A stretch of 64,000 nucleotides of DNA from Pedosphaera sp. GTDB taxonomy: Bacteria; Verrucomicrobiota; Verrucomicrobiia; Limisphaerales; UBA1100. Where the stretch lies: assembly GCA_009695465.1 (NCBI GenBank), contig SIAW01000001.1:7092-71091 (forward strand), given 5' to 3'. A model generated the notes under the pieces. That model was not told the origin of the DNA and made no database searches. It worked only from the letters and a program-made list of their open reading frames with translations. Positions 31,676-59,226 of this stretch are shown piece by piece. Within the stretch, counting starts at the first letter, position 1. Each line of letters opens with the position of its first letter. The position numbers and the translations under genes were made by a program.

Positions 31676-31814
31676 AAACGCTCGTTGGTTATTGGTGTTT
31701 GTGTAATGAGGCGGCAACACTAGCCCGCCCGTCGGCACGGTCAATGCCGAACATTGCGCGGGTGTGCATGCAAAGCGGTTGTCACCCCGCGGGCTTTGCC
31801 GTTCAATCGCGCGC

Positions 31815-33290
31815 ATGACGCCCGCAGTCATCTTGGCCTGCGTGGGCGCGTACTTCGCGCTGCTGTTGGCCATCGCGTGGCGCACGGGGCGAGGCGCGGA
31901 CACGGCCGGCTACTATCTCGGCAACAAAGCATCGCCGTGGTACATCGTCGCCTTCGGGATGATCAGCGACACGCTCTCGGGCGTCACCTTCATCTCCGTG
32001 CCCGGCTCGGTGGGCGCCAACCAGTTCTCCTACTTGCAAATGGTCTTCGGCTATGTGCTGGGCTACGTCGCCATCGCGCTGGTGTTGTTGCCGCTGTATT
32101 ACCGGCTGGAACTCACTTCCATCTACGGTTACCTCGGCCAACGCTTTGGTCCGCGCGCGCAAAAAACCGGCGCGGCGTTCTTCCTGATTTCCCGCACGCT
32201 CGGCGCAGCGGCGCGACTGTACTTGGCGGCGGGCGTATTCCAGACCTTCGTGTTTGATCAATGGCACGTGCCTTTCGCGCTCACCGTCGCAGTGATGATC
32301 CTGCTGATGCTCGCCTACACCTATCGCGGCGGCATCAAGACGTTGGTGTGGACGGACACGCTGCAGTCGGCGTTCCTGCTGCTGGGCGTGGGGCTTTCGC
32401 TGGTCGCGCTGTGGCGCGGGCTGGGACTGGACTGGGACGGGCTGGTCTCGACTTTGCAGGACAGCCCGCACGCGCAGATCTTTTTCTGGGACTGGAAAGA
32501 TCCCAAATTCTTTTGGAAACAATTCCTCTCCGGCGCCTTCATCGCCGTGGTGATGACCGGGCTGGACCAGAACTCGATGCAGAAAAGCCTCTCGTGCCGC
32601 ACGCTGGGCGAGGCGCAGAAAAACATCTTCTGGTTCAGCGGCGTGATCGTGCTGGTGAACTTCCTCTTCCTCGCGCTGGGCGCGCTGCTCTACGCCTACG
32701 CGCAGTCCCAAGGCGTCGCCGTGCCGGAGAAAACCGACCAGTTCTTTCCGCTACTCGCCTTTCAACACCTCGGCACCTTCGCCGCCGTCGTCTTCGTGCT
32801 CGGCCTCACCGCTGCCACATTTTCCAGCGCGGACTCCGTGCTCACCACACTCACCACCAGTTTCTGCCTCGACATCGCGCACGACAATCGCCGCAGCGAA
32901 GCCGAGCGGACGCGCTTGCGCCATCGCGCGCACATCGGGTTTGCCGTGTTGTTGCTGCTGGTGATTTTGGTTTTCCAAGCGGTGAGCAGCCGCGCCGTCA
33001 TTGATCTGGTGCTCAAGCTCGCCACCTTCACCTACGGCCCGTTGCTGGGCCTCTTCGCGCTGGGCCTTTTCACGCGATGCCCGGTGAATGACCGGCTGGC
33101 GCCGCTAGCCTGTGTGTTGGCGCCGGTGATCTGCTGGGTGGTGGAACGCAACGCCGCTGCGTGGTTTGGCGGCTACAAATTTGGCTACGAGTTGCTGCTG
33201 GTGAACGGCGCGCTCACCGCCGCGCTCCTTTACGGATTCACACGGTTGACCGGCACAGCATCAGAGACTGAGATGGCCCAGCGCCAGTAA
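31815..33290 (+). CDS. Sodium:solute symporter (SSS) family transporter
   Basis: About 13 TM helices with SSS-like motifs ('GGIKTLVWTDTLQ', 'GLDQNSMQK'). ATG at 31815. Confidence 0.85.
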   Translation: MTPAVILACVGAYFALLLAIAWRTGRGADTAGYYLGNKASPWYIVAFGMISDTLSGVTFISVPGSVGANQFSYLQMVFGYVLGYVAIALVLLPLYYRLELTSIYGYLGQRFGPRAQKTGAAFFLISRTLGAAARLYLAAGVFQTFVFDQWHVPFALTVAVMILLMLAYTYRGGIKTLVWTDTLQSAFLLLGVGLSLVALWRGLGLDWDGLVSTLQDSPHAQIFFWDWKDPKFFWKQFLSGAFIAVVMTGLDQNSMQKSLSCRTLGEAQKNIFWFSGVIVLVNFLFLALGALLYAYAQSQGVAVPEKTDQFFPLLAFQHLGTFAAVVFVLGLTAATFSSADSVLTTLTTSFCLDIAHDNRRSEAERTRLRHRAHIGFAVLLLLVILVFQAVSSRAVIDLVLKLATFTYGPLLGLFALGLFTRCPVNDRLAPLACVLAPVICWVVERNAAAWFGGYKFGYELLLVNGALTAALLYGFTRLTGTASETEMAQRQ

Positions 33291-34148
33291 GCCGTAGTAC
33301 GTGTATTCCGCGTCCACATGCTCATCGGCCCAGTGACCGTGAAAGCCCCCTTCATTGGTCCAGAGCGTGTCGATGAAATCCAGGCAGCGTTCGTGGATCA
33401 CGTTGGGCAAACGCCGTTCCATCGCAGCGAGTGCATGCAGCGTCGTCGCGGTGGAAAGCAGATCGGGCATGGGCGCGCCGGGCACGGCGACAAATCCACC
33501 CTGCTCATGCGACTGCGCCAGCAGCCAGTCCCCCACGGCGTTGTTCACGGGAAAACCAAGATGGCGGATGAGCGTCACCGCGCCGGCGGTGGCATTGGTC
33601 GCGCCGATGGGCGTGCCGGGGAAATTGCTCCACGCATGATCCGGGGTTTCAAGGCGCTTGAGGCTTTGGATCAACTTCAGCGGCGAGGGCGGATTGCGAT
33701 CCAGATCTTGGTAAGCGCCCAGCGCCACGAACGCCCCGTAGGCCGTGCCGTGCGCCAACTTTGTATCGCCCTCGTAACCGCTATCGGGTTTGCGGAAAGA
33801 TTCGATGCGCGCGAGCAGTGCGTCGGCCAGTCCAGCGGGCATGCGCTTGGTGCCGATGGCGGCCCAACAACGGGCCAGCGCGGAGAGGTGTACAAAGTCC
33901 AGCGCTGCGCCATCGCCATGCGAGCGCAGGTACGCCTCCACTTTGTCGGCCGGCACCTCGGCGTCCAACGCCTGCAGGCCCGCGAGCGCGAAGATGGTGT
34001 AATACAGATCGGGGCGGCCCGCGCGATCCAGTCCCGCGCCGTCCGCGTTGAGTCGGCTGCGAAAGAAATCGCGCACCAATCCGGCGGAGTCGCCCAAGAG
34101 GCGCGGTGAAAGCCGGGCCACCTGCAGCAGTTGAAGGCGCAGGCTCAT
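33261..34148 (-). CDS. Prenyltransferase/squalene-oxidase-repeat (alpha/alpha-barrel) protein, resembling the beta subunit of protein prenyltransferases
   Basis: Repeated 'GGF..........D..YTYY.L.AL' units, for example 'EGGFHGHWADEHVDAEYTYYGLLALGHL', 'QGGFVAVPGAPMPDLLSTATTLHALA' and 'DSGYEGDTKLAHGTAYGAFVALGA'. The ATG at 34148 was chosen because the rest of track ORF 33261..34670 overlaps the upstream gene. Confidence 0.75.
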   Translation of the reverse strand: MSLRLQLLQVARLSPRLLGDSAGLVRDFFRSRLNADGAGLDRAGRPDLYYTIFALAGLQALDAEVPADKVEAYLRSHGDGAALDFVHLSALARCWAAIGTKRMPAGLADALLARIESFRKPDSGYEGDTKLAHGTAYGAFVALGAYQDLDRNPPSPLKLIQSLKRLETPDHAWSNFPGTPIGATNATAGAVTLIRHLGFPVNNAVGDWLLAQSHEQGGFVAVPGAPMPDLLSTATTLHALAAMERRLPNVIHERCLDFIDTLWTNEGGFHGHWADEHVDAEYTYYGLLALGHLSL

Positions 34149-34167
34149 CGAGACGCGCGCGGTGCCG

Positions 34168-35922
34168 TCAGGCGACGACCGGCTGGCGGGCCTCGTGGGT
34201 TTCGTGAACCTTGTGGGCCTTGTGCAACTCCGACTCCTGCACTTCGCTGCACCAGCCCTTGATTTCAGCCTCGTTGAAAATCTTGCCAATGACGCGGCGC
34301 AGCAGCCCTTTGAGATTTGGATTCTCCAGCTCGCGCAACGCGTGCACGGCCTCTTCCTTGTACGTGGCCAGCAACGTCTCCGCGCGCTCATCGGCCTTGA
34401 GCTTGCGATAAAGCGCCTCCACTTGTCCGGCGCCGCATCCGGCCGGGGGCTGACGACGCCACAGCGCGCCGAGCAATTCGCGCTCGCTGTCTTTCGCGCG
34501 TTCATGCGCCACGGCCAGCAGCAAGCTCGGGCGCAGGCCGGCGATGTCGTTGGTCTCGCCCGTGTCGCCCAGATCGCTGAGGTCGTCGCGGATCTGATAC
34601 GCAATGCCCAGCGCCTCGCTGTATTTGCCCAACACCCCGGAGACAGCGGCGTGCTCGGCCACGCCCGCATGGAGCGCGCCCAATTGCAGGGCGACCTCGA
34701 AGGCCGGCGCAGTTTTTTTGCGGAAGATGTCGAGCACTTGCAGCGTGGAGAGCGGCTGCGGACGTTGTTGCCAGCACAGCTCCGCGCCTTGGCCGCGGCA
34801 CAGTTCGCGCTGTCCAGCGGCGGCCACGTTCAACATCGCCGCGCGTTGTTCAGCGCTGATGTTGCACTTGCCGATGAGCCGGTAGCCTTCGCCGATGAGC
34901 AGGTCGCCCACGTTGAGCGCCACCGCCACGCCGTGTTCTTCGTGCAACGTTTTCTCGCCGTACCGTTGGGCGTCGTTGTCCTCGATGTCGTCGTGGATGA
35001 GCGATGCTTTGTGGAAGCACTCCACCGCCACGGCGATGTTTTTCAAATCTTCGGGCAACGACCCTTCGGGATGTTCGCGCAGTGCCTGACAAGCAGCAGC
35101 GGCGAGGAACGGACGCCAGCGTTTGCCCGCGCGCGCCAGCCATTCGTGGGCGATGACTTCCGTTTCGCCGTCAGGCTGACCCAGCAGCGCGGAGAGCGAG
35201 GCGGGCGTGAACCACGTGGCCACTTCATCGCGCAGCCGGCCCAAGTCCAGTCGCCGCGTGCGGTCATCGCTGGTGAGATGGATGTAATCCCAGACCCATT
35301 CCTCGTCCACGGTGGTGTTGATGCAATCATCCTGCAACAACGGGATGGCCACACCGGGCACGGCTGCGGCTTCCATGTACGGGAACGCGCGCTCCAAAAC
35401 CGAGAGGCAACTCACGCCGACGATGGCCTCGATCTTGCCGGTCTGGATGAGCGACATGACGATGGCGCTGCCTTCGGCGACGAGCACCGCGTAGCCGAGA
35501 CGCTCGGCCTCCGCTTGCAAATCTTGGATGGTGCAGAGGCCGCATTGTTTGCACAGCAGACCAAACTCGTCGAAGGGCGCCGGGCAACGGCTTTCCACGC
35601 GCAGACATTTGGGCAGCAGCAGCAGGCGCCGCTCGAACGGCACGGAGGCCAGTTGTTCGCGCCAGCTTTCGTTGTTGATCAGCACGCCCACGTAATCGCG
35701 GTAGATCGCCGGCCATCGCAGATTCGCCAGCACGCGATCGGCGTGGATCTTCAAATCCTCCACCGGCAGCGGCGGCACGGGGTTGAACTCCGCCACGTAG
35801 GCGCGCACGGCGGCCAAGGCGCGTTCGCGCTCGGGGCGCGTCTGCGGCACGTTGTCTTTCGGTTTGCGCGACAGAGGACGCGGAACCGGGCGCGGGATGA
35901 CGAGTGAGGCGGTAGTGGACAT
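34168..35922 (-). CDS. Fusion protein: N-terminal DUF116-like Cys-rich domain + C-terminal trans-polyprenyl diphosphate synthase
   Basis: N-terminal half: 'RRLLLLPKCLRVESRCPAPFDEFGLLCKQCGLC', DUF116-like. C-terminal half: 'GKRWRP', first Asp-rich motif DDIED (verified at nt 34978-34992) and second motif DDLSD (34573-34587). ATG at 35922; alternative TTG at 35940. Confidence 0.82.
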   Translation of the reverse strand: MSTTASLVIPRPVPRPLSRKPKDNVPQTRPERERALAAVRAYVAEFNPVPPLPVEDLKIHADRVLANLRWPAIYRDYVGVLINNESWREQLASVPFERRLLLLPKCLRVESRCPAPFDEFGLLCKQCGLCTIQDLQAEAERLGYAVLVAEGSAIVMSLIQTGKIEAIVGVSCLSVLERAFPYMEAAAVPGVAIPLLQDDCINTTVDEEWVWDYIHLTSDDRTRRLDLGRLRDEVATWFTPASLSALLGQPDGETEVIAHEWLARAGKRWRPFLAAAACQALREHPEGSLPEDLKNIAVAVECFHKASLIHDDIEDNDAQRYGEKTLHEEHGVAVALNVGDLLIGEGYRLIGKCNISAEQRAAMLNVAAAGQRELCRGQGAELCWQQRPQPLSTLQVLDIFRKKTAPAFEVALQLGALHAGVAEHAAVSGVLGKYSEALGIAYQIRDDLSDLGDTGETNDIAGLRPSLLLAVAHERAKDSERELLGALWRRQPPAGCGAGQVEALYRKLKADERAETLLATYKEEAVHALRELENPNLKGLLRRVIGKIFNEAEIKGWCSEVQESELHKAHKVHETHEARQPVVA

Positions 35923-36044
35923 GTAGCTATGGCTTTTCAACGGCCAACATGCGGCCGATGTTTGCTGTCTGTGTAACGGCCGCAGATTGTGCGGTGGCCG
36001 AACCGGAGTGTCGAACCCAAAAGCGGGCCAGCCTCATCGCGGGT

Positions 36045-36572
36045 TCACCACGAATTATTGTGGCGCAACCAATGCTCGGCCCCCGTGTCAATTTTCCGGA
36101 TGACATCCGCTATCTGACGCAGGTTGCAGGAGCAGCCTTCGAAAATGAACTGCATGGATTCCGGATCGAGGTTGCGATGGAAGTTGTCAGAGGCAAATCC
36201 AACCAGCGGCCCCACGGGCATCAGGTTCATCGGCTGCGCCGAGTGGTGGGCCTCGTTGCCGTACCAAGCGATGAGGTGCGCGTCGAACTGATCCAGCGTC
36301 GCGCCAAGCGCCGCCCAATCTGCCGGGGCACGTTCGGGCGCCGCCGTCGCCTCGCACAACATCTTGCCGCGTTCCGCCGCGGTGGGATTGGCCGGCCAGA
36401 GCACCTTGCCCAGATCCGCCGCGTGGCGCACGAAGGCGTGCGTATAGAAAAAGACGTTCTCGGGAACGTTCAATTGCAGGTGCCCGTGGATCTGCCCGTA
36501 GGCGTACAGCGCGAAACGGCACTGGCAGCGCACCTCTTCCAACAAGCGGAATCGGAAAGCGTTGTTGTTCAT
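36045..36572 (-). CDS. Hypothetical protein (175 aa), no recognisable family
   Basis: Diverse, non-low-complexity sequence. Its ATG overlaps the upstream ferredoxin stop (ATGA at 36569-36572). The antisense ORF 35949..36578 looks like a shadow. Confidence 0.6.
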   Translation of the reverse strand: MNNNAFRFRLLEEVRCQCRFALYAYGQIHGHLQLNVPENVFFYTHAFVRHAADLGKVLWPANPTAAERGKMLCEATAAPERAPADWAALGATLDQFDAHLIAWYGNEAHHSAQPMNLMPVGPLVGFASDNFHRNLDPESMQFIFEGCSCNLRQIADVIRKIDTGAEHWLRHNNSW

Positions 36573-37429
36573 GATTGAGTTTGATGATTCATCGCCAGCG
36601 CGGCGGCGGCCTTGGCTTTCGCCTCCCCTGCGCGACGCAAAATCTCATCGGGCGCGGGCAGGCTCATCAGCACCTCCACAGGAATGTCGCCCGCCGTGGC
36701 GAGTTTGGTCAGACATTTCTGCCGTTCAGCCAGCGCCTTCTTATCATCCCGCTCTTTGCTGAAGCGCACCTTGGCGTCATCACTGCGCTGCCGCAACGAG
36801 GCGTACACATCGCCGCCCAACAGCGCGGAGATGTCCACCTTCATCCGTTCCCGCCCAAGATCGGCGGCCGTGACGGCGTCGCCATTGATCGGACCAGCTT
36901 TGTATTTGGGGAACATGATGGCCGCCTCGGGACAGACACGACTGCAGGCCGGGCAATTGGTTTTGCAATTGTCGTTGGTCTGCACCTCGATGCGCCCAGT
37001 CGCATCCGCGCCGTACACGCCGAAGAGACAGAAGGAAAGGCACTGCATGCAGTTGGTGCAACGGTCGTAGTCAATGACCGGGAACCACGGCTTCCACTCG
37101 CCGTGCCGCGCGGCGCCGCGCTGTTCGCGGTGCCACTCCACGCGCCCGGCGATGGCCGCGGTGTCCTGTCCGGAGATGTCCTCAAAATGCACGGCGACCT
37201 GCCCCTCCGCATCTTCCGCCTGCGGCACGCGACCTTCATCGAAGCGTCCCAAAACAAGCAGCGTACTGCGATCGGCCGGCGCCACAGTGCCCGTGCCGGT
37301 GCGGGTGACGGTGTAGCCGCGCTCCAGCAATTCGGTGAGCGCCGCAAACCGATCCGCAGCGCCCAGCGGCTGCGCGCCCGCGCCCTCGTAAAGAACGACG
37401 CGCAGTGTGGTTTGGTCTTTGATGGCCAT
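36569..37429 (-). CDS. 2x[4Fe-4S] ferredoxin-domain protein with unassigned N- and C-terminal regions
   Basis: 'CTNCMQCLSFC' and 'CKTNCPACSRVCP' cluster motifs (about nt 36932-37060), flanked by ~115 aa (N-terminal) and ~110 aa (C-terminal, helical, Lys/Ala-rich) of unknown function. Confidence 0.8.
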   Translation of the reverse strand: MAIKDQTTLRVVLYEGAGAQPLGAADRFAALTELLERGYTVTRTGTGTVAPADRSTLLVLGRFDEGRVPQAEDAEGQVAVHFEDISGQDTAAIAGRVEWHREQRGAARHGEWKPWFPVIDYDRCTNCMQCLSFCLFGVYGADATGRIEVQTNDNCKTNCPACSRVCPEAAIMFPKYKAGPINGDAVTAADLGRERMKVDISALLGGDVYASLRQRSDDAKVRFSKERDDKKALAERQKCLTKLATAGDIPVEVLMSLPAPDEILRRAGEAKAKAAAALAMNHQTQS

Positions 37430-37437
37430 AAATCAGT

Positions 37438-37836
37438 TCACGTTTTCCGCGCCGCCGCCGCCGCGGCGGCCGCCTCGGTCTTGCCTTGCGGCAGATTGAG
37501 ATTCATGTCCGCGCTGGCGAGTGCGGCGCTGACTTCTTCCGCGCTTTGCGTGCGCATGTTAATCACCTCGGTGCGCTCGGCGGCAAGATCAGCACCCGCC
37601 TGATGGAACAAGCCTTTCACCGCGCGCGGGAAACAGGCGGCAATCTTCACCGCGCCACCTTCGGCCAGCCGTTTCAACGCAGGATCGCGCCGCGCCGCCA
37701 TCTCGCACAGATCCGCCACGGCATCGAAGGCCGCGCCACTCTCGCACAGCCGACGCAGCACGGCAGCCTTCACGTCCGGCGGCACCACCTGCGCGTAGGC
37801 GCAGTGGCAATACAGGATGCGCGGGGCGTCAGGCAT
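37438..37836 (-). CDS. Small Cys-containing hypothetical protein
   Basis: 'RILYCHCAYAQVVP' plus three more Cys residues. ATG at 37836; the track start at 37896 is a TTG and would overlap the upstream gene by 14 nt. No family recognised. Confidence 0.55.
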   Translation of the reverse strand: MPDAPRILYCHCAYAQVVPPDVKAAVLRRLCESGAAFDAVADLCEMAARRDPALKRLAEGGAVKIAACFPRAVKGLFHQAGADLAAERTEVINMRTQSAEEVSAALASADMNLNLPQGKTEAAAAAAAARKT

Positions 37837-37882
37837 GCGCGGGAAGTCTAGCGTGAGGATGCACGGGACGGCAACTGCGGTT

Positions 37883-39088
37883 TCAGAGTGACTCAATGCT
37901 CTCGACGCGGTGAGTGGGCACCGGTTTGCCGGGGCGGAAATATTCGAGATGCTCCAGCGCGGCCGTCAATCCGGTGAACCGCGGCGGCACCGTGGCAAGC
38001 GCGGCGCGCACGGCATCGGCCAGTGTCTGCGGCGCGGCCTCGGCGCGAAGGTTCATGATGAGTTGGCCGCTCGTCACAGGATCTTCGAGGCTCTGAGAAA
38101 GTTCGGGCACAAAGTCGCTGCGCACCAGATTGATCACCGCCACCGCGCCGCCAAACGTGTTGTCGGGATTCAAGGTCATCTTGAAATGCGCCACTTCGGC
38201 TCCCGCCGCGCGCAGTCGGGACTGCACGTCGGCAGCAAGCGCAGCGAGCACCGCATCGGAGTCAAAACCTGCGGGCGCGGCCAGCAATGCTGTGGCGTTG
38301 AGCCAGCCCAAGAGCGCCTCGCCCTCGGCGTACGTCTGATAATCCACGGTCATCACGGCGCGCGCGGTTTGTTCCGAATCGTTGACGCGCGCAAACCACG
38401 GAGCCAATCCCTCACCCGTGCGCGCGGAGATTTCCAGCAACTCCGCCTTCGGAAATTCCCGCGCCAACGCAGCGCGCAACGCAGTTCTGCGCCCGGCATC
38501 CAACGTGTCGCATTTGTTGATGACGATGAGGTCGGCCTCCTCGAGTTGCTTGAGATAAATGTAGCGAACCTTCTCGGAGAATTGGCCGCCCGTTTCCAAG
38601 CCGAGCACGCGCGCCGCGCGGACGGGATCCACCAGCACGCTCAAGGGTGCGATGGCAAAGCGATCGCCGTACATGCGGCGCAGCGGATAGGTCACTGTCG
38701 CGACGAGATCGGTGCAACTGCCCACCGGTTCGGCGATGAATACCTCCGGGCGCGCGCCTTGCGCGAGCTTGTCCGCCGCCTCGACGAGTGAATTGAAGCG
38801 GCAACAGAAACAGCCGCCGGCGATTTCCTCTGTGGCAAATCCGTGCGACCGCAGCATCGCCGTGTCCACCAACTCGCTGCCCTGATCATTGGTGATCAGC
38901 CCCACGCGCAGTCCTTGATCAGTGAGATGCCGCGCCAGTCGCGCGACGGCGGTAGTCTTTCCCGCGCCGAGAAATCCGCCCACCATGATGTAGCGCGCCT
39001 TCGATGTCGGCGCGGGATGCTGGGTTTGAGCGGCGGTCACGAAGGGAGTCTGAATCTGTTCGCGGCCAAAATCAATTGGCAAGGGCAA
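37883..39088 (-). CDS. G3E-family P-loop GTPase (CobW/HypB/UreG-like metallochaperone family) with a ~170-aa C-terminal extension
   Basis: 'GGFLGAGKTT' P-loop, 'GGCFCC' metal-binding-type motif, 'EPVGSCTD' and 'INKCD' (NKxD). Start uncertain: 39088 is a TTG. Confidence 0.8.
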   Translation of the reverse strand: MPLPIDFGREQIQTPFVTAAQTQHPAPTSKARYIMVGGFLGAGKTTAVARLARHLTDQGLRVGLITNDQGSELVDTAMLRSHGFATEEIAGGCFCCRFNSLVEAADKLAQGARPEVFIAEPVGSCTDLVATVTYPLRRMYGDRFAIAPLSVLVDPVRAARVLGLETGGQFSEKVRYIYLKQLEEADLIVINKCDTLDAGRRTALRAALAREFPKAELLEISARTGEGLAPWFARVNDSEQTARAVMTVDYQTYAEGEALLGWLNATALLAAPAGFDSDAVLAALAADVQSRLRAAGAEVAHFKMTLNPDNTFGGAVAVINLVRSDFVPELSQSLEDPVTSGQLIMNLRAEAAPQTLADAVRAALATVPPRFTGLTAALEHLEYFRPGKPVPTHRVESIESL

Positions 39089-39112
39089 CGCAGCAAAACA
39101 AGGCCGCCGCGC

Positions 39113-39592
39113 TCACTGGATCTCCGTCCCCTTTTGCTGCTCCAAAATCTTGTCGATGGTTTTGTCCAACAACGCGCGATAGGCCGGCATGTCCAGACAC
39201 TGCGGGCCGGGCTCGCCACGCACCGCATATAACCAACCCGCGCCGTGACAATCTTTGTTGATGAGGGAAATCTTCTCGCGCAGCGCTGGGTTGACGCCGG
39301 CGAAACTGCCGCGCGCGATGCAGTACACGTCCGAGATGGCCTTGAAGCCTTCCACCCAGCCGAGGGTTTGGCCCGGCTCCACCGGCGCATCGGGCGCGGG
39401 GTCGAGACCCAAGTCCACCATCTCACCCAGCATGCGACTGGCGAATTTCGTGAGGCCCACGCGCCAGAGGCCGGGCTTATCCGGCACGGGCGCAATCCAG
39501 AAATGCGAAGGGCTGAAGAGATAATTCACCGGCAGATGCGTCACAAAATGTGAACGCCTGTAAAGCTGTGTGGCGGGTTTGCCGGTATCCAT
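39113..39592 (-). CDS. Glycine-cleavage H-protein-like (lipoyl/biotinyl-domain) protein, orphan
   Basis: 'WRVGLTKFASRMLGEMVDL...GWVEGFKAISDVYCIARGSFAGVNPAL...GAGWLY' aligns by eye with GcvH ('VGIT..A...LGD.V.V.LP...ESVKAASD.Y.P.SG....N..L'). The modifiable Lys position is conserved. ATG at 39592. Confidence 0.78.
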   Translation of the reverse strand: MDTGKPATQLYRRSHFVTHLPVNYLFSPSHFWIAPVPDKPGLWRVGLTKFASRMLGEMVDLGLDPAPDAPVEPGQTLGWVEGFKAISDVYCIARGSFAGVNPALREKISLINKDCHGAGWLYAVRGEPGPQCLDMPAYRALLDKTIDKILEQQKGTEIQ

Positions 39593-39677
39593 CTCGGGCC
39601 ACCAGCAAATCACACCCAAGCAAAGCGGGAAAGCGGGATGTGTGCGTTGCGGCTGCCTTCTGCAACAGTCAGGTTGC

Positions 39678-40019
39678 TCAGCAAGTCTTTGTCCGGCTCA
39701 ATTTCCCGTCTGAAAAATGGCGGGTGTCGTGCAACGTGCCATCCGCGCGATCACGTTTCCAGAGTCCCGCCTGCTTGCCATCCTTGAACCCGCCGGTCTG
39801 CTGCAGTTCGCCCTGTTCGCGGAACCATTTCCACGGGCCGATAAGCTCGTCCCCCGCATACTTGCCGCTGGCCCGCAGTGGCCCGCTGCGGAAATAATAT
39901 TTCCAGGCGCCCACTTTCTTGCCGTTCATGTACCGGCCCGTGGCGGATAGTTTTCCGTCGGTAAAGGTCTCCCTGCAGGCACCGTGCTTCGGGGTTTTAT
40001 CACTGCGGCTTGGGTTCAT
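39678..40019 (-). CDS. MORN-repeat-variant (YwqK-like) small protein
   Basis: Repeats of 'G.K.G.W..Y..(N/S)G.L' type: 'NGKKVGAWKYYFRSGPL', 'DELIGPWKWFREQGEL', 'DGKQAGLWKRDRADGTL'. ATG at 40019. Confidence 0.65.
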   Translation of the reverse strand: MNPSRSDKTPKHGACRETFTDGKLSATGRYMNGKKVGAWKYYFRSGPLRASGKYAGDELIGPWKWFREQGELQQTGGFKDGKQAGLWKRDRADGTLHDTRHFSDGKLSRTKTC

Positions 40020-40120
40020 GATTCGCGGATAGTGAGCTGCAATTACTCTATCAGCATGATGGCTGAGAAGATGGCGCGGGCCAATCTTGTTTCTCCACGC
40101 GGCGTGCGCTAGAAACGGGC

Positions 40121-41263
40121 GTGCGTTATTTCGACCACAACGCCACGGCGCCACTGCATCCCGCGGCGCGAGTGGCGTGGCTGGAGGCGGCGGAACAATT
40201 CCCCGGCAATCCTTCCAGTCCGCATCGCGTGGGGCAGCGTGCCGATGCGGCGCTGGCTCAAGCGCGACAGCAATTGGCGACCGCGCTTGGCTGTGACGCA
40301 CTGGACATCGTGTGGACTAGCGGCGCCACTGAATCGGCTAACGCCGTCTTTCATCACACGGCGCGCACGGCTGCGTCGGGCGCGCAGGTGTGGCTTTCCG
40401 CTGTCGAACATCCGTGTGTCATCGAAGCAGCGCGGCGTTATTTTTCCGGCGCGCACCGCTTCATCCCTGTCTCTCACGCCGGCGTGGCGGACTTGAATTG
40501 GCTGGAGCAGGAGTTGAAGAAAGGCTCACCAGCATTGGTCGCGTTGATGGCTGCGAACAACGAGACGGGCGTGTTGCAACCGTGGCGCGAGGCGCAGGCG
40601 CTGTGCCGCACGGCGGGCACGCCGTTCTTTTGCGATGCGGTGCAATGGCTGGGCCGGTTGCCGGCGGCGGGACTGGGCGCGTGCGATTTTGTGAGCGGCA
40701 GCGCGCACAAATTTGGCGGGCCACGCGGGATGGGTTTGCTGAAAGTGCCGGCGCAGGGACGTTTTGAACCGCTGCTGGCGGGCGGCGCGCAAGAGGAAGG
40801 TCGGCGCGCGGGGACGGAAAATGTTGCAGGTGCGTTGGCGCTGGTGGCGGCGTTGGTAGCACGTGAACGCGAGATGGACAGTGGAGAGCGCGAGCAGTGG
40901 CGCGCGGAATTTGAGACGTGCTTGGTTGCTGAATTGCCCGGCGCAGCGATTGTCGGCGCGGACACGGCGCGACTTTGGAACACCGTGAGCGCGCTGATGC
41001 CGGAGGCGGATTGTCGGCAGCGTTGGGTGGTGAAGTTGGACAAGGCGGGATTCGCTGTTTCCACCGGCAGCGCCTGTGCCAGCGGCAAGGAAACTCCCAG
41101 TCACGTGCTCACGGCGATGGGCTACAGCGCAGCCGATGCCGGGCGGGCGCTGCGTTTTAGCAGCGGACCGGCGACCACGCGCGCAGATTGGGCGGCGTTG
41201 CTGGAGGCGTTAAAACAAGTGGCTGCGCAGGCGGAGAACTCCGCGACAGCCGCGCGCGATTAA
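40121..41263 (+). CDS. Cysteine desulfurase (class V aminotransferase, NifS/IscS-like)
   Basis: 'FDHNATAPL', 'TSGATESAN', the PLP lysine in 'SGSAHKFGGPRG' and the catalytic Cys in 'STGSACASG'. GTG start. Confidence 0.88.
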   Translation: MRYFDHNATAPLHPAARVAWLEAAEQFPGNPSSPHRVGQRADAALAQARQQLATALGCDALDIVWTSGATESANAVFHHTARTAASGAQVWLSAVEHPCVIEAARRYFSGAHRFIPVSHAGVADLNWLEQELKKGSPALVALMAANNETGVLQPWREAQALCRTAGTPFFCDAVQWLGRLPAAGLGACDFVSGSAHKFGGPRGMGLLKVPAQGRFEPLLAGGAQEEGRRAGTENVAGALALVAALVAREREMDSGEREQWRAEFETCLVAELPGAAIVGADTARLWNTVSALMPEADCRQRWVVKLDKAGFAVSTGSACASGKETPSHVLTAMGYSAADAGRALRFSSGPATTRADWAALLEALKQVAAQAENSATAARD

Positions 41264-58038: not shown

Positions 58039-58128
58039 TGGCGGAGAGGGAGGGATTCGAACCCCCGGTAGGTTTTAGCCTACCCACGCTTTCCAAGCGC
58101 GTGCCTTAAACCACTCAGCCACCTCTCC
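58039..58128 (-). tRNA. tRNA-Ser (anticodon GGA), genomically encoded CCA
   Basis: Hand-folded. Acceptor GGAGAGG/CCTCTCC, anticodon stem CGCGC/GCGTG with loop TTGGAAA, long variable arm, T-arm GGGGG-TTCGAAT-CCCTC, discriminator G + CCA. Confidence 0.9.
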
Positions 58129-58240
58129 GTTGCGGAAAGTCTGGCGCAGCACCGCGATGGGGGCAACGATTTTCGCGCGACAGTTGGGCCTTGAAACTGG
58201 TGCAGGGCTGAGGTTGATTGCTTCAGACACGCGTGCGCTG

Positions 58241-59005
58241 ATGAATGACAATCTGGAAATGAAGGGAGCTTGTGGCCACTGCGGTGGGCACATTGTTTTC
58301 CCGGCGGAGATGCAAGGCCAGATGGCCGGCTGCCCGCATTGTGAGCGCGCAACGATGCTCAAACCGATGCGGGCGCGCCCAGCACAGCCGGTGTCAAAAA
58401 AAGCGGCGGCCGCTTCGGTGTCGTGCCCGCAATGCCGCAAGCCGATGGGCGTTGAGGATGTGATTTGTGTCGCGTGCGGCTTCCGCATGCCTAGTCCGAT
58501 TCCGTGGCTGCGTGTGGCGGTCGTGGCGGTGATGGTGTTGGAGTTGGGCTACCTTGCGCTGCGCTGGACTGGATTGGATTCGACCACGCGCGCGGCCTTG
58601 GCGGGGAAGTTGGGCATCCGCACGGCGGCGGTTGTCAGCACGGGCGGGCCGACGGTGGTTGTTCCAAAAGATTCCAACCAGACCGTCAATGCCGCTCCGC
58701 CGCAGCCAGTGGAGCCAGCCGGACCGGATCAAGGCACGCTGACGCTCGCCGGCACTCCTGCGTTGAAAGAGGACGGCGACTTTCACTACATACAAGGCAC
58801 GGTAAAAAACAACTCCAAGCGCGATGTCTTCTATGAGGTGAAAGTGAAATTCCGCCTGATGGACAAGAACGGCGCGGCGCTGGGCGAGGTGCAGGATTAT
58901 GCGCCGTTCATCGAGCCGGGCAAATCGTGGGATTTCCGCGTGCTGGTGGTGGACATCGACGCGACGAAGTACGAATTCATCGAGCCCATCGGCGGGCGTC
59001 GGTGA
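58241..59005 (+). CDS. Zinc-ribbon + TM + FxLYD-like domain protein
   Basis: 'CGHCGG...CPHCE' and 'CPQC...CVAC' pairs, one TM helix, and a C-terminal 'GDFHYIQGTVKNNSKRDVFYEVKVKFRLMDKNG..GKSWDFRV' resembling FxLYD domains. ATG at 58241 avoids overlap with tRNA-Ser. Confidence 0.65.
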   Translation: MNDNLEMKGACGHCGGHIVFPAEMQGQMAGCPHCERATMLKPMRARPAQPVSKKAAAASVSCPQCRKPMGVEDVICVACGFRMPSPIPWLRVAVVAVMVLELGYLALRWTGLDSTTRAALAGKLGIRTAAVVSTGGPTVVVPKDSNQTVNAAPPQPVEPAGPDQGTLTLAGTPALKEDGDFHYIQGTVKNNSKRDVFYEVKVKFRLMDKNGAALGEVQDYAPFIEPGKSWDFRVLVVDIDATKYEFIEPIGGRR

Positions 59006-59010
59006 AAGGC

Positions 59011-59086
59011 TGGTGGAGCCATGGGGATTCGAACCCCAGACCTTCTCATTGCGAACGAGACGCTCTACCAACTGAGCTATGACCCC
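59011..59086 (-). tRNA. tRNA-Ala (anticodon CGC), genomically encoded CCA
   Basis: Hand-folded. Acceptor GGGGTCA/TGGCTCC with the G3:U70 Ala identity pair, anticodon loop TTCGCAA, T-arm TGGGG-TTCGAAT-CCCCA. Confidence 0.9.
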
Positions 59087-59139
59087 AACGCGAGGCCCTG
59101 TCTTACGGCCAGCCTGTGACCGTGGCAAGGGCAAACAAA

Positions 59140-59226
59140 TGGTGCGCCTAAGAGGACTCGAACCTCTACCTCTTTCGAGACTACCACCTCAAGGTAGCGC
59201 GTCTACCAATTCCGCCATAGGCGCAC
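59140..59226 (-). tRNA. tRNA-Leu (anticodon GAG), genomically encoded CCA
   Basis: Hand-folded. Acceptor GTGCGCC/GGCGCAC, anticodon stem CTACC/GGTAG with loop TTGAGGT, long variable arm, T-arm AGAGG-TTCGAGT-CCTCT. Confidence 0.9.

What the first reader, a model, noticed from the sequence alone, without database searches (positions are those of the whole stretch)
33261..39592. Seven-gene minus-strand operon linking a GcvH-like carrier, a G3E metallochaperone GTPase, Fe-S proteins, a DUF116::polyprenyl synthase fusion and a prenyltransferase-beta-like barrel
All seven genes lie on the minus strand with tiny or negative spacers. GcvH-like stop to the G3E start is 24 nt. G3E stop to the next start is 46 nt, or a 14-nt overlap if the TTG is used. 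The following junctions are 8 nt, an ATGA overlap at 36569-36572, ~100-120 nt before the fusion gene, and 19 nt before the barrel protein. The parts are individually recognisable: a lipoyl-domain protein with its Lys retained, a P-loop/GCFCC/NKxD GTPase, a 2x[4Fe-4S] domain, DDxxD motifs, and GGF...YTYY barrel repeats. I know of no described pathway that combines them, and no glycine-cleavage, lipoate, quinone, hopanoid or carotenoid gene is nearby. One inference is a metal/Fe-S-dependent pathway that makes a polyprenyl diphosphate and transfers or cyclises it, possibly on a protein-tethered (GcvH-like swinging-arm) or Cys-containing substrate. Bacterial protein/peptide prenylation is one possibility among several.
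Basis: partly seen in the sequence, partly recalled or inferred. Interest (0 to 1): 0.8.

Follow-up and report, generated by a model that had tools for sequence, protein, structure and literature searches.

The report
Reduced PVC terpenoid cluster, Fe-S-linked prenyl synthase
The seven genes are real, and most of them belong to an old, widely conserved and still uncharacterised isoprenoid gene cluster of Verrucomicrobia and Planctomycetes that usually also carries a radical SAM enzyme and an unusual squalene-cyclase-like enzyme, both missing from this window.

Summary
All seven minus-strand ORFs, their spacers and their domains are confirmed. The organism is a Pedosphaera sp. MAG.

Comparison with 160 related loci changes the picture. 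In relatives whose fusion protein is under 65% identical to the window's, the order g3, g4, radical SAM, DUF116-prenyl synthase, toroid, SHC-like cyclase is kept. Counts among loci with enough flank: toroid 36/42, cyclase 21/26, radical SAM 27/37, g4 23/27, g3 18/25. The GcvH-like protein and the G3E GTPase are accessory (8/23), as is a divergent NifS-like desulfurase. g5 is a fast-evolving occupant of a variable slot.

The window's clade has no radical SAM or cyclase gene in the cluster, and neither is found anywhere in the 64 kb. By its reported taxa, length and retained DxDD motif, the cyclase looks like the literature's "SHC-like" clade of unknown substrate. I did not test that placement by phylogeny.

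Best reading: a redox-assisted terpenoid module. The synthase probably makes a chain of C20 or longer. Its seven-Cys DUF116 domain is probably fed by g3 and g4. The toroid probably handles the chain. GcvH-like, G3E and NifS probably mature or reduce the metal site.

Protein prenylation, ordinary hopanoid synthesis and menaquinone synthesis are not supported. The function remains unproven.

The parts
39113..39592 (-). g1: divergent GcvH-like lipoyl-domain protein (159 aa). Accessory member of the cluster.
   Evidence: Pfam GCV_H 1.1e-16. NCBIfam gcvH models score 56-68 bits against cutoffs of 116-117, so it is not a bona fide GcvH. K84 in EGFKA is kept in >=95% of 29 homologues. Found upstream of g6 in 25/55 near loci and 8/23 distant loci. 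NCBI calls it MSU40367.
37883..39088 (-). g2: G3E (COG0523/CobW-type) GTPase with a conserved C-terminal domain that has no Pfam match. Accessory member.
   Evidence: Pfam cobW 5.7e-24. Best solved-structure match is YjiA, 2e-6. P-loop, GCFCC, NKxD and many C-terminal residues are >=95% conserved in 40 sequences. The C-terminal 172 aa have no significant Pfam match. The start must lie upstream of conserved Y33: TTG 39088/39082 or GTG 39040.
37438..37836 (-). g3: small flavodoxin-like protein (132 aa) with four invariant Cys (C10, C12, C44, C68). Probably a metal or Fe-S electron carrier. Core member.
   Evidence: No Pfam or NCBIfam match. 3191 homologues, all unnamed. AlphaFold model has pLDDT 88.4 and an alternating beta/alpha fold, with the Cys at the C-terminal ends of the strands. 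Foldseek gives only weak flavodoxin/Rossmann-like hits; the highest probability is 0.87 to HdrA, 7bkd_A. Found upstream of g6 in 18/25 distant loci.
36569..37429 (-). g4: 2x[4Fe-4S] ferredoxin-domain protein with unmatched N- and C-terminal extensions (286 aa). Core member.
   Evidence: Fer4 families at about 1e-7; PorD/HdrA-type ferredoxin-domain hits. C124/127/130/134 and C155/159/162/166 are >=95% conserved in 58 sequences. Found in 23/27 distant loci.
36045..36572 (-). g5: lineage-restricted protein of unknown function (175 aa) in the variable slot between g4 and g6. This is where most relatives carry the radical SAM gene.
   Evidence: No match in Pfam, NCBIfam or PADLOC. Detected in 9 of 82 loci. 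31% identical to its L070 counterpart, where g6 is 70% identical. Relatives hold unrelated genes in the same slot: DUF4357/RAMA, Uma2, a dioxygenase.
34168..35922 (-). g6: fusion of a DUF116 (COG1852) seven-Cys metal-binding domain with a trans-polyprenyl diphosphate synthase (584 aa). Anchor of the cluster.
   Evidence: DUF116 5.4e-35 plus polyprenyl_synt 9.9e-41. Closest solved relatives are short-chain GGPP/FPP synthases. FARM DDIED and SARM DDLSD are present, with Ala(-5)/Ser(-4) before FARM. Seven Cys are invariant both in near homologues (C106/113/124/127/130/172/200) and in fusions about 35% identical. More than 7000 homologues were found, and more than 100 full-length-sized fusion representatives at the 50% clustering level.
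33261..34148 (-). g7: single-domain alpha-alpha toroid with five prenyltransferase-beta/terpene-cyclase-type repeats (295 aa). Lacks the Cys/His zinc ligands. Core member.
   Evidence: Pfam Prenyltrans 2.8e-10. A family profile hits RabGGTase beta at 1.1e-10 and SHC at 1.2e-7. In the alignment to human FTase beta, D297 pairs with D279, C299 with E281, and H362 with Y50. D279, E281 and Y50 are invariant in 24 diverse homologues. Found directly downstream of g6 in 36/42 distant loci.
40121..41263 (+). NifS/IscS-type cysteine desulfurase, transcribed divergently from the cluster. Recurrent accessory neighbour.
   Evidence: Aminotran_5 1.4e-45. NCBIfam NifS scores 257 bits against a cutoff of 531. 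Found in 14 of 82 near loci, most often divergent from g1. In L076 it lies next to and co-oriented with the SHC-like cyclase.

Best explanation
The window holds a reduced form of an ancient, conserved isoprenoid (terpenoid lipid) gene cluster of PVC bacteria.

What is shown:
- g6 is an intact trans-prenyl diphosphate synthase fused to a seven-Cys DUF116 domain.
- g3 (a four-Cys flavodoxin-like protein), g4 (a 2x[4Fe-4S] protein) and g7 (a prenyl-binding-type alpha-alpha toroid) travel with g6 in fixed order across deep divergence.
- In most lineages a radical SAM enzyme and a DxDD-bearing, SHC-like class II cyclase travel with them too.

What is inferred:
1. The synthase domain makes a chain of C20 or longer. 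The residues before the first DDxxD are small (Ala at -5, Ser at -4), which by the established chain-length rule allows elongation past C15.
2. The DUF116 domain holds an Fe-S or other metal centre. It receives low-potential electrons through g3 and g4 and carries out or gates a reductive step on the allylic diphosphate product. This step would yield a non-squalene polyprene.
3. g7 binds the chain in its toroid cavity. It uses the invariant Asp279/Glu281/Tyr50 site, which sits where protein prenyltransferases place their zinc, to hold or process the head group. It then passes the product on.
4. In relatives, the radical SAM enzyme and the SHC-like cyclase turn this precursor into a polycyclic terpenoid.
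5. g2 (G3E GTPase) and the NifS-like desulfurase mature the metal or sulfur centres. The GcvH-like g1 acts as a lipoyl/dithiol redox partner or sulfur carrier, not as the substrate arm.

In this window's clade the radical SAM and cyclase genes are gone from the cluster. The module therefore either makes an acyclic product or feeds enzymes encoded elsewhere in the genome.
For: Domains and motifs.

Conservation of order and strand:
- Near loci (Limisphaerales, g6 >=69% identical): g4 37/65, g3 33/61, radical SAM 31/70, g7 40/74.
- Distant loci (g6 <65% identical): g7 36/42, SHC-like cyclase 21/26, radical SAM 27/37, g4 23/27, g3 18/25, g1 and g2 8/23 each.

The cyclase in relatives:
- Pfam SQHop_cyclase_N and _C domains.
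- A DADD motif at about residue 370.
- The nearest solved structure is SHC, 2.4e-37.

Electron supply: a Planctomycetota locus adds NuoF-like and GltD-like NAD(P)H/Fe-S modules upstream on the same strand.

Metal sites:
- Seven invariant Cys in DUF116 across fusions only about 35% identical.
- Four invariant Cys in g3, placed at the strand ends of a confident flavodoxin-like model.
- Invariant D279/E281/Y50 in g7 at the positions of the FTase zinc ligands.

Literature:
- DUF116 (COG1852) was predicted to be a metal-binding, flavodoxin-like electron-transfer domain. It is fused to a polyprenyl synthetase in Pirellula staleyi and is adjacent to an ArsA-type ATPase in Methanococci (PMC5898192).
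- The function of that clade is still undemonstrated (PMC12324236).
- A Bipolaricaulota cluster also puts DUF116 next to IspH, SHC, a radical SAM enzyme and a polyprenyl synthetase.
Against: - No biochemical data exist for any component.
- The window itself has neither the radical SAM nor the cyclase gene in 64 kb. The cyclisation end of the pathway is therefore extrapolated from relatives.
- About 25 near loci have g6 with none of the partners within 10 kb. One locus has NifS, g1, g3 and g4 without g6 (L165). The modules can therefore work apart, and g6 could be a general-purpose synthase.
- The DUF116 structure model was unusable (pLDDT 58). Its cluster type and any reductase role are conjecture.
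- The g3 fold matches are weak (best E 0.016).
- Two unrelated radical SAM families occupy the same slot in different lineages. This fits tailoring better than a core step.
- Chain length is inferred from two residues only.
Confidence: 0.55

Rival explanations
1. Juxtaposed but functionally separate units. g6 (with or without g7) is the organism's housekeeping FPP/GGPP synthase. g1-g4 plus NifS form an unrelated Fe-S/lipoyl redox or maturation module. Their adjacency is inherited synteny.
For: - About 25 near loci have g6 alone within +-10 kb.
- In L001 an RND pump is inserted between g6 and g7.
- L165 has NifS, g1, g3 and g4 without g6.
- Unrelated neighbours (gfo, sss, apbE) are also syntenic within the order.
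- g6 is unusually conserved, at about 75% identity across the order, as expected of an essential enzyme.
Against: - Synteny of gfo, sss and apbE disappears in distant loci. The order g3, g4, radical SAM, g6, g7, cyclase persists down to 35-45% g6 identity on the same strand with short gaps.
- The DUF116 fusion ties a Cys-rich metal domain physically to the synthase across more than 100 clusters at the 50% level.
Confidence: 0.2
2. Protein or peptide prenylation (one of the first reader's options). g7 acts as a prenyltransferase that attaches the g6 product to a Cys-containing protein or to the GcvH-like carrier.
For: - The closest solved relatives of g7 by sequence are the beta subunits of protein prenyltransferases.
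- Cys-rich small proteins and a lipoyl-domain protein lie nearby.
Against: - Two of the three zinc ligands are replaced: Cys299 by Glu281 and His362 by Tyr50.
- No alpha-subunit-like gene recurs in the 160 loci.
- g1 is absent from about two thirds of distant clusters.
- The g3 Cys sit at the cofactor site of a flavodoxin-like fold, not in a C-terminal CaaX-like tail.
- A class II cyclase, not a protein substrate, is the conserved downstream partner.
Confidence: 0.05
3. An ordinary hopanoid or menaquinone side-chain locus. The synthase supplies FPP or octaprenyl-PP, the relatives' cyclase is SHC, and their radical SAM enzyme is HpnH or MqnC/E.
For: - Public annotations name the relatives' cyclase 'squalene--hopene cyclase'.
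- Hopanoid clusters in other bacteria combine a prenyl synthase, SHC and a radical SAM enzyme (own knowledge, plus the cluster listing).
Against: - The cyclase scores 94-108 bits against the NCBIfam hopene_cyclase cutoff of 431, and 119-125 bits against the 322.7 cutoff of squalene_cyclas.
- The radical SAM enzyme scores 34.9 bits against the HpnH cutoff of 225. No Mqn model appears among its 25 best-scoring NCBIfam families shown.
- Of the recurrent neighbour families, the ones checked with Pfam include no squalene or phytoene synthase and no UbiA/MenA.
- The synthase matches long-chain synthase models worst: IspB 51 bits, against 101-126 bits for short-chain models.
Confidence: 0.07

Closest known systems
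'SHC-like' or 'unknown function' clade of class II triterpenoid-type cyclases in PVC, FCB, Spirochaetota and Acidobacteriota (Santana-Molina et al. 2020, PMC7306690; preprint PMC12324236)
   Same: - The cyclase that follows g7 in relatives is 600-630 aa and has both SQHop_cyclase domains.
- It keeps the DxDD motif and comes from Verrucomicrobia and Planctomycetota.
- It falls far below the SHC and OSC family cutoffs.
- The literature already inferred from genomic context that the precursor is not squalene.
   Different: - The window itself has no such cyclase.
- The papers I could read do not describe the partner set found here: DUF116-synthase fusion, toroid, radical SAM, g3/g4, GcvH-like, G3E and NifS.
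- I did not test clade membership with reference sequences in a phylogeny.
Bacillus sesquarterpene (C35) pathway: HepS/HepT, then YtpB, then SqhC
   Same: The logic is the same: a dedicated prenyl diphosphate synthase, a second enzyme that processes the diphosphate end, and then an SHC-family class II cyclase acting on a regular (head-to-tail) polyprene rather than on squalene.
   Different: - No YtpB-type class I synthase is present. A prenyltransferase-beta-like toroid sits in its place.
- Fe-S electron carriers, a DUF116 domain and a radical SAM enzyme have no counterpart in Bacillus.
- The similarity is one of logic only, drawn from my own knowledge.
Hopanoid (hpn) biosynthetic clusters
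   Same: They combine a prenyl diphosphate synthase, an SHC-family cyclase, a radical SAM enzyme and Fe-S isoprenoid enzymes in one locus.
   Different: - The cyclase and the radical SAM enzyme fail the SHC and HpnH family cutoffs.
- No squalene synthase genes are present.
- DUF116, the toroid, GcvH-like and G3E are not hpn components.
Beta subunits of protein farnesyl- and geranylgeranyltransferases
   Same: g7 shares the alpha-alpha toroid built of GGF...D..YT..AL repeats. These are its best solved-structure matches.
   Different: - Single subunit with no alpha partner.
- The zinc ligands Cys and His are replaced by an invariant Glu and Tyr.
- About 100 residues shorter.
Archaeal DUF116 / COG1852 / arCOG02078 proteins (Makarova et al. 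2015, PMC5898192)
   Same: - The same Cys-rich, predicted flavodoxin-like metal-binding domain.
- That paper already noted the fusion to a polyprenyl synthetase in Pirellula staleyi.
- Association with a SIMIBI-class NTPase: ArsA-like in Methanococci, G3E here.
   Different: - The archaeal proteins carry two N-terminal transmembrane helices and sit beside sulfite/nitrite reductase genes.
- The domain here is soluble and fused to an isoprenoid enzyme.
COG0523 G3E metallochaperone GTPases (CobW, YjiA, ZigA)
   Same: cobW nucleotide-binding domain with a P-loop, a CxCC metal motif (GCFCC) and NKxD.
   Different: - No CobW_C domain was detected. The C-terminal 170 aa form a separate conserved domain with no Pfam match.
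- All equivalog models fall far below their cutoffs.

Membership tests
trans-Polyprenyl diphosphate synthase (PF00348) | Pfam domain above the gathering score | tested here: met
   140 bits against a cutoff of 27, residues 264-497 of g6.
trans-Polyprenyl diphosphate synthase (PF00348) | Two Asp-rich motifs (FARM and SARM, DDxxD) | tested here: met
   DDIED and DDLSD are present in g6. Both motifs are invariant or nearly invariant across near and distant fusions.
trans-Polyprenyl diphosphate synthase (PF00348) | Membership of a named equivalog (FPP, GGPP, hepta- or octaprenyl synthase) | tested here: not met
   The best NCBIfam hits score 101-126 bits against cutoffs of 275-468. The product chain length is not assigned.
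DUF116 / COG1852 | Pfam domain above the gathering score, with conserved Cys including CxxCxxC | tested here: met
   120.6 bits against a cutoff of 25. C124-x2-C127-x2-C130 plus four more invariant Cys.
Glycine cleavage protein H (GcvH) | GCV_H fold with the lipoyl-Lys motif | tested here: met
   Pfam 61 bits against a cutoff of 22. K84 is kept in >=95% of homologues.
Glycine cleavage protein H (GcvH) | Equivalog score, and genomic or functional link to GcvP/GcvT/LpdA | tested here: not met
   TIGR00527 56 bits against 116; NF002270 68 bits against 117. No gcv genes were found among the neighbours checked.
G3E / COG0523 metallochaperone GTPase | cobW nucleotide-binding domain with P-loop, CxCC and NKxD | tested here: met
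   85 bits against a cutoff of 20.7. The motifs are >=95% conserved.
G3E / COG0523 metallochaperone GTPase | CobW_C C-terminal domain | tested here: not met
   No Pfam match for the C-terminal 172 aa at E<=10, apart from a chance-level hit.
Protein prenyltransferase beta subunit | Alpha-alpha toroid made of PFTB repeats | tested here: met
   Pfam Prenyltrans 40.5 bits against a cutoff of 26.5. RabGGTase beta at 1.1e-10 with the family profile.
Protein prenyltransferase beta subunit | Zinc site Asp297/Cys299/His362 (FTase numbering) | tested here: not met
   The residue alignment pairs D297 with D279, C299 with E281 and H362 with Y50. The replacements are invariant in the family.
Protein prenyltransferase beta subunit | Partner alpha subunit | tested here: not met
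   No recurrent alpha-like (TPR/PPTA) gene family appears among the 30 most frequent neighbour families in 160 loci. Only some of those families were annotated with Pfam.
Squalene-hopene cyclase (for the cyclase of related loci, not in the window) | NCBIfam hopene_cyclase or squalene_cyclas score above cutoff | tested here: not met
   94-108 bits against 431; 119-125 bits against 322.7.
Class II (protonation-type) terpene cyclase (cyclase of related loci) | Beta-gamma didomain with a DxDD catalytic motif | tested here: met
   SQHop_cyclase_N and _C domains. DADD at residues 370-374 in three diverse members, and D359/D361/D362 invariant in 15.
'SHC-like / unknown function' cyclase clade of the literature | Phylogenetic placement with reference members such as Gemmata obscuriglobus | not tested
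   Only taxon range, length, retained DxDD and sub-threshold SHC scores agree. No reference sequences were available for a tree.
HpnH adenosyl-hopene transferase (radical SAM of related loci) | TIGR03470 score above cutoff | tested here: not met
   34.9 bits against a cutoff of 225.

The most novel reading that the evidence does not exclude
The DUF116-synthase fusion, the toroid g7 and the g3/g4 electron chain form a previously unknown route to a non-squalene polyprene. The route would be Fe-S- and ferredoxin-dependent and would act reductively on the allylic diphosphate. Maturation or redox support would come from a G3E GTPase, a NifS-like desulfurase and a lipoyl-type GcvH-like protein. The polyprene would be the long-sought substrate of the 'SHC-like' cyclase clade. 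That would imply an undiscovered class of polycyclic terpenoid lipids, and potential biomarkers, in Verrucomicrobia and Planctomycetes.
Probability: 0.2. Interest if true: 0.85.

Novelty: new variant of a known kind. Interest (0 to 1): 0.62.

Why it matters
Two papers name the substrate and product of the PVC "SHC-like" cyclase clade as an open problem for the history of triterpenoid lipids and for reading hopane- and sterane-type fossils (PMC7306690; PMC12324236). This analysis gives a concrete, conserved partner list for that cyclase:
- a DUF116-fused prenyl synthase;
- a zinc-less prenyltransferase-like toroid;
- a radical SAM enzyme;
- two small Fe-S proteins;
- in some lineages, a GcvH-like protein, a G3E GTPase and a NifS-like desulfurase.

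That list makes the question directly testable by heterologous expression. It also gives the first coherent functional context for DUF116/COG1852. Finally, it shows a natural "minus cyclase, minus radical SAM" variant (this window) that can serve as a comparison.

Tried and rejected
- AlphaFold model of the DUF116 half of g6: mean pLDDT 57.9. It was too poor for a fold search, so none was run.
- Foldseek of the good g3 model against the PDB: no hit at E<=0.001. It supports only a generic flavodoxin-like fold. The HdrA hint (probability 0.87) is weak.
- Pfam at E<=10 for g3, g5, the g4 N-terminus and the g2 C-terminus: nothing meaningful.
- PADLOC for g5: nothing.
- Promoter and terminator scan over 33000-40300: counts at or below the shuffle expectation. 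No statement on transcripts is possible.
- Solved-structure searches for the two radical SAM types: only generic SPASM-type or methylthiotransferase-type hits.
- Literature searches on DUF116, PF01976 and combinations of cluster components: no paper describing this gene set.
- Supplement of PMC7306690, which shows the cyclase's genomic context: not held.
- The ideas that the relatives' radical SAM is HpnH and their cyclase is SHC: rejected on family cutoffs.
- g5 as a defence or mobile gene: neither supported nor excluded.

Full report
OBSERVATION

The seven minus-strand ORFs exist as described, and the spacers recomputed match the finding.
- g1 to g2: 24 nt.
- g2 to g3: 46 nt to the ATG at 37836. 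Homologues of g3 are mostly about 125-145 aa, which favours this ATG over the TTG at 37896.
- g3 to g4: 8 nt.
- g4/g5: ATGA overlap at 36569-36572.
- g5 to g6: 104-122 nt.
- g6 to g7: 19 nt.

Pfam confirms the domains: GCV_H for g1, cobW for g2, Fer4 families for g4, DUF116 plus polyprenyl_synt for g6, and the Prenyltrans toroid for g7. g3 and g5 match nothing, even at E<=10.

NCBI's annotation of the same MAG, a Pedosphaera sp. (MSU40361-MSU40367), calls proteins identical to g6, g7, g5 and g1. The ten largest flanking ORFs within about 15 kb encode unrelated functions: a permease, an acyl-CoA ligase/acyltransferase, an ABC exporter, UvrD, an EPSP synthase, MutS, an alanine dehydrogenase and others. 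A scan for sigma-70 promoters and intrinsic terminators found nothing above the shuffle expectation. Co-transcription is therefore untested.

CONSERVATION NEAR THE WINDOW

The fusion protein g6 has more than 7000 homologues. The top 120 are 73-99% identical to it; the few with a source name are mostly labelled Verrucomicrobia or Pedosphaera.

I fetched 80 genome loci whose g6 is at least 69% identical and searched them with tblastn using every window protein.
- g4 lies upstream on the same strand in 37/65 loci with enough flank, and g3 in 33/61.
- g1 does so in 25/55 and g2 in 24/55.
- g7 lies directly downstream in 40/74.
- A NifS-like gene is found in 14 loci, most often divergent from g1.
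- g5 was detected in only 9 loci. It is 31% identical to its L070 counterpart, where g6 is 70% identical.

The slot between g4 and g6 is variable. In 33 loci it holds a radical SAM gene of about 430 aa. That gene is NirJ/AhbD/SPASM-like only at sub-threshold scores, and it scores 34.9 bits against the HpnH cutoff of 225. The window has no homologue of it anywhere in its 64 kb. Other loci carry unrelated insertions in the slot: DUF4357/RAMA, an Uma2 nuclease, a dioxygenase.

About 25 loci have g6 with no partner within 10 kb. A neighbour-joining tree of g6 puts the window in a clade whose members all lack the radical SAM: L037, L007, L080, L071, L062, L082 and L078. L016 shows the same layout but was not in the tree. 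This looks like a derived loss from the cluster.

CONSERVATION FAR FROM THE WINDOW

A search of representatives clustered at 50% identity returned well over 100 fusion proteins of 500-600 aa that are 35-60% identical to g6. Seven Cys of the DUF116 half are invariant even among fusions about 35% identical to one another.

I scanned metagenome contigs with an alignment of distant fusions and obtained 80 more loci. Among the 58 whose g6 is under 65% identical to the window's, the counts in loci with enough flank are as follows.

| Gene | Present / loci with enough flank |
|---|---|
| g7, directly downstream | 36/42 |
| Radical SAM, directly upstream | 27/37 |
| g4 | 23/27 |
| g3 | 18/25 |
| g1 | 8/23 |
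| g2 | 8/23 |
| Cyclase of about 615 aa, directly after g7 | 21/26 |

Clustering all ORFs from scratch picked out that cyclase as the next most recurrent family. Its properties are:
- Pfam SQHop_cyclase_N and _C domains.
- A DADD (DxDD) motif at about residue 370.
- D359/D361/D362 invariant in 15 diverse members.
- SHC is its nearest solved relative, at 2.4e-37.
- It scores only 94-108 bits against the hopene_cyclase cutoff of 431.

In the Limisphaerales loci where this cyclase was found, it sits beside NifS on the far side of the divergent region (L076), upstream on the same strand (L045), or about 7 kb downstream of g6 (L012). The window has no homologue.

A second, unrelated radical SAM type fills the same slot in one subclade. 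It is 523 aa and resembles the TIGR04013 family, which has a B12-binding domain. That subclade also carries NuoF-like and GltD-like NAD(P)H/Fe-S proteins upstream on the same strand, and a PQQ_2 propeller recurs more widely.

From the g3 side, one locus has NifS, g1, g3 and g4 without g6 (L165). Another reproduces the window's exact layout (L167).

THE PARTS

g6, synthase half:
- It is closest to short-chain FPP/GGPP synthases.
- Both DDxxD motifs are intact.
- Ala and Ser occupy positions -5 and -4 before the first motif. Under the established chain-length rule for this family, aromatic residues at those positions stop elongation at C15. Small residues therefore predict C20 or longer. This is an inference.

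g6, DUF116 half:
- Makarova et al. (PMC5898192) predicted DUF116 (COG1852) to be a metal-binding, flavodoxin-like electron-transfer domain.
- They noted its fusion to a polyprenyl synthetase in Pirellula staleyi, and its adjacency to an ArsA-type ATPase in Methanococci.
- My structure model of this half was unusable (pLDDT 58).

g3:
- It models confidently (pLDDT 88) as a small alternating beta/alpha fold.
- The invariant C10, C12, C44 and C68 sit at the C-terminal ends of the strands, the usual cofactor site of this fold.
- Fold matches are weak. The highest probability is 0.87, to HdrA.

g4 has two canonical [4Fe-4S] motifs.

g7:
- It is a five-repeat alpha-alpha toroid. With a family profile, its best solved matches are RabGGTase beta (1.1e-10) and SHC (1.2e-7).
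- In the residue alignment to human FTase beta, the zinc ligands D297, C299 and H362 pair with D279, E281 and Y50. All three are invariant in 24 diverse homologues.
- The site is therefore conserved but is not a Cys/His zinc site. By analogy between repeats, E281 also sits where SHC-type repeats carry the central Asp of DxDD. This last point is an inference and was not tested.

g1 keeps the lipoyl Lys but fails the GcvH equivalog cutoffs. g2 is a COG0523-type G3E GTPase with the GCFCC motif and a conserved C-terminal domain that has no Pfam match.

WHAT IT MOST LIKELY IS

The deep conservation of order and strand argues that g3, g4, g6 and g7 act together in a terpenoid pathway. In most lineages a radical SAM enzyme and an SHC-like cyclase act with them.

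The recurring Fe-S proteins, the NAD(P)H modules in one subclade and the Cys-rich domain fused to the synthase all point to a reductive, low-potential step coupled to chain synthesis. g7 is the likely chain-handling partner. g1, g2 and NifS are accessory. I read them as maturation or redox helpers for the metal centres. The link between DUF116 and a SIMIBI-class NTPase recurs in archaea.

The window's version lacks the cyclisation and radical SAM genes. It makes an acyclic product, feeds enzymes encoded elsewhere, or has been re-purposed. I put 0.55 on this overall reading. The specific "reductive removal of the diphosphate" step is conjecture.

RIVALS

- Independent units in inherited synteny (0.2). 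This is supported by the many solitary g6 loci and by L165. It is weakened by the persistence of gene order at 35-45% identity, where the other syntenic neighbours (gfo, sss, apbE) are gone.
- Protein prenylation (0.05). The zinc ligands are changed, there is no alpha subunit, and g1 is not a core member.
- Ordinary hopanoid or menaquinone genes (0.07). The family cutoffs are failed. Of the recurrent neighbour families, the ones checked with Pfam include no squalene synthase and no UbiA-type gene.

COMPARISON WITH WHAT IS KNOWN

Santana-Molina et al. 2020 defined "SHC-like" cyclases. They stated that the planctomycete ones keep catalytic residues and that their genomic context suggests precursors other than squalene. 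A 2025 preprint describes the same clade in PVC, FCB, Spirochaetota and Acidobacteriota, with neither function nor structure determined, and names it a priority.

The cyclase in the relatives fits that description by taxa, length, motif and sub-threshold scores. I did not place it on a tree with reference sequences. The closest analogy in pathway logic is the Bacillus C35 route: HepS/HepT, then YtpB, then SqhC. No paper I could read describes the partner set reported here.

VERDICT

This is a real, conserved and largely uncharacterised cluster. The protein-prenylation and swinging-arm ideas are not supported.

- Novelty: a new variant of a known kind (a terpenoid biosynthetic cluster), with unprecedented redox and maturation components.
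- Interest: 0.62.

Noticed in passing
window 39678-40019 (-): A small MORN-repeat ORF lies on the cluster's strand, 85 nt upstream of g1. It is about 113 aa if it starts at the ATG at 40019. The longer 207-aa reading would overlap the start of NifS. Homologues 45-46% identical sit at the same place in L016 and L045. It may be an eighth co-oriented gene.
   Followed up: partly
window 33261-33290: The stop-proximal ends of g7 (-) and of the sodium:solute symporter gene (31764-33290, +) overlap convergently by 30 nt. This leaves no room for a terminator between them.
   Followed up: no
L001 17001-18725: In a relative where an RND efflux operon separates g6 from g7, the g7 homologue lies convergent with a lipoyl synthase gene (LIAS_N + Radical_SAM). 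This may be coincidence, but it is notable given the GcvH-like g1.
   Followed up: no
slot between g4 and g6 in related loci (e.g. L019 7788-8636, L043 4054-4794, L003 4556-5224, L062/L071/L080 about 4-10 kb): This intergenic position collects unrelated insertions: a DUF4357/RAMA protein, an Uma2 nuclease, an intradiol dioxygenase, and 6-7 kb blocks with large opposite-strand ORFs. It appears to be a hotspot for rearrangement inside an otherwise conserved cluster.
   Followed up: partly
L121 8403-9974; L163 5001-6572: A second, unrelated radical SAM family replaces the NirJ/AhbD-like radical SAM in the same slot in one subclade. It is 523 aa and resembles TIGR04013 (B12-binding domain plus radical SAM). 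That subclade also carries NuoF-like and GltD-like genes upstream.
   Followed up: partly
window 81-6812 (+) and 59297-63946 (-): Two very large ORFs (about 2243 and 1549 aa) with high third-position GC. They were not examined.
   Followed up: no
window 58042-59224 (-): Three tRNA genes were found by Rfam at gathering threshold.
   Followed up: no
L083-L085, L098, L121, L126, L141, L163 (upstream of g3/g4): A PQQ_2/BamB-like beta-propeller gene recurs just upstream of g3/g4 in roughly ten distant clusters. Its role is unknown.
   Followed up: partly
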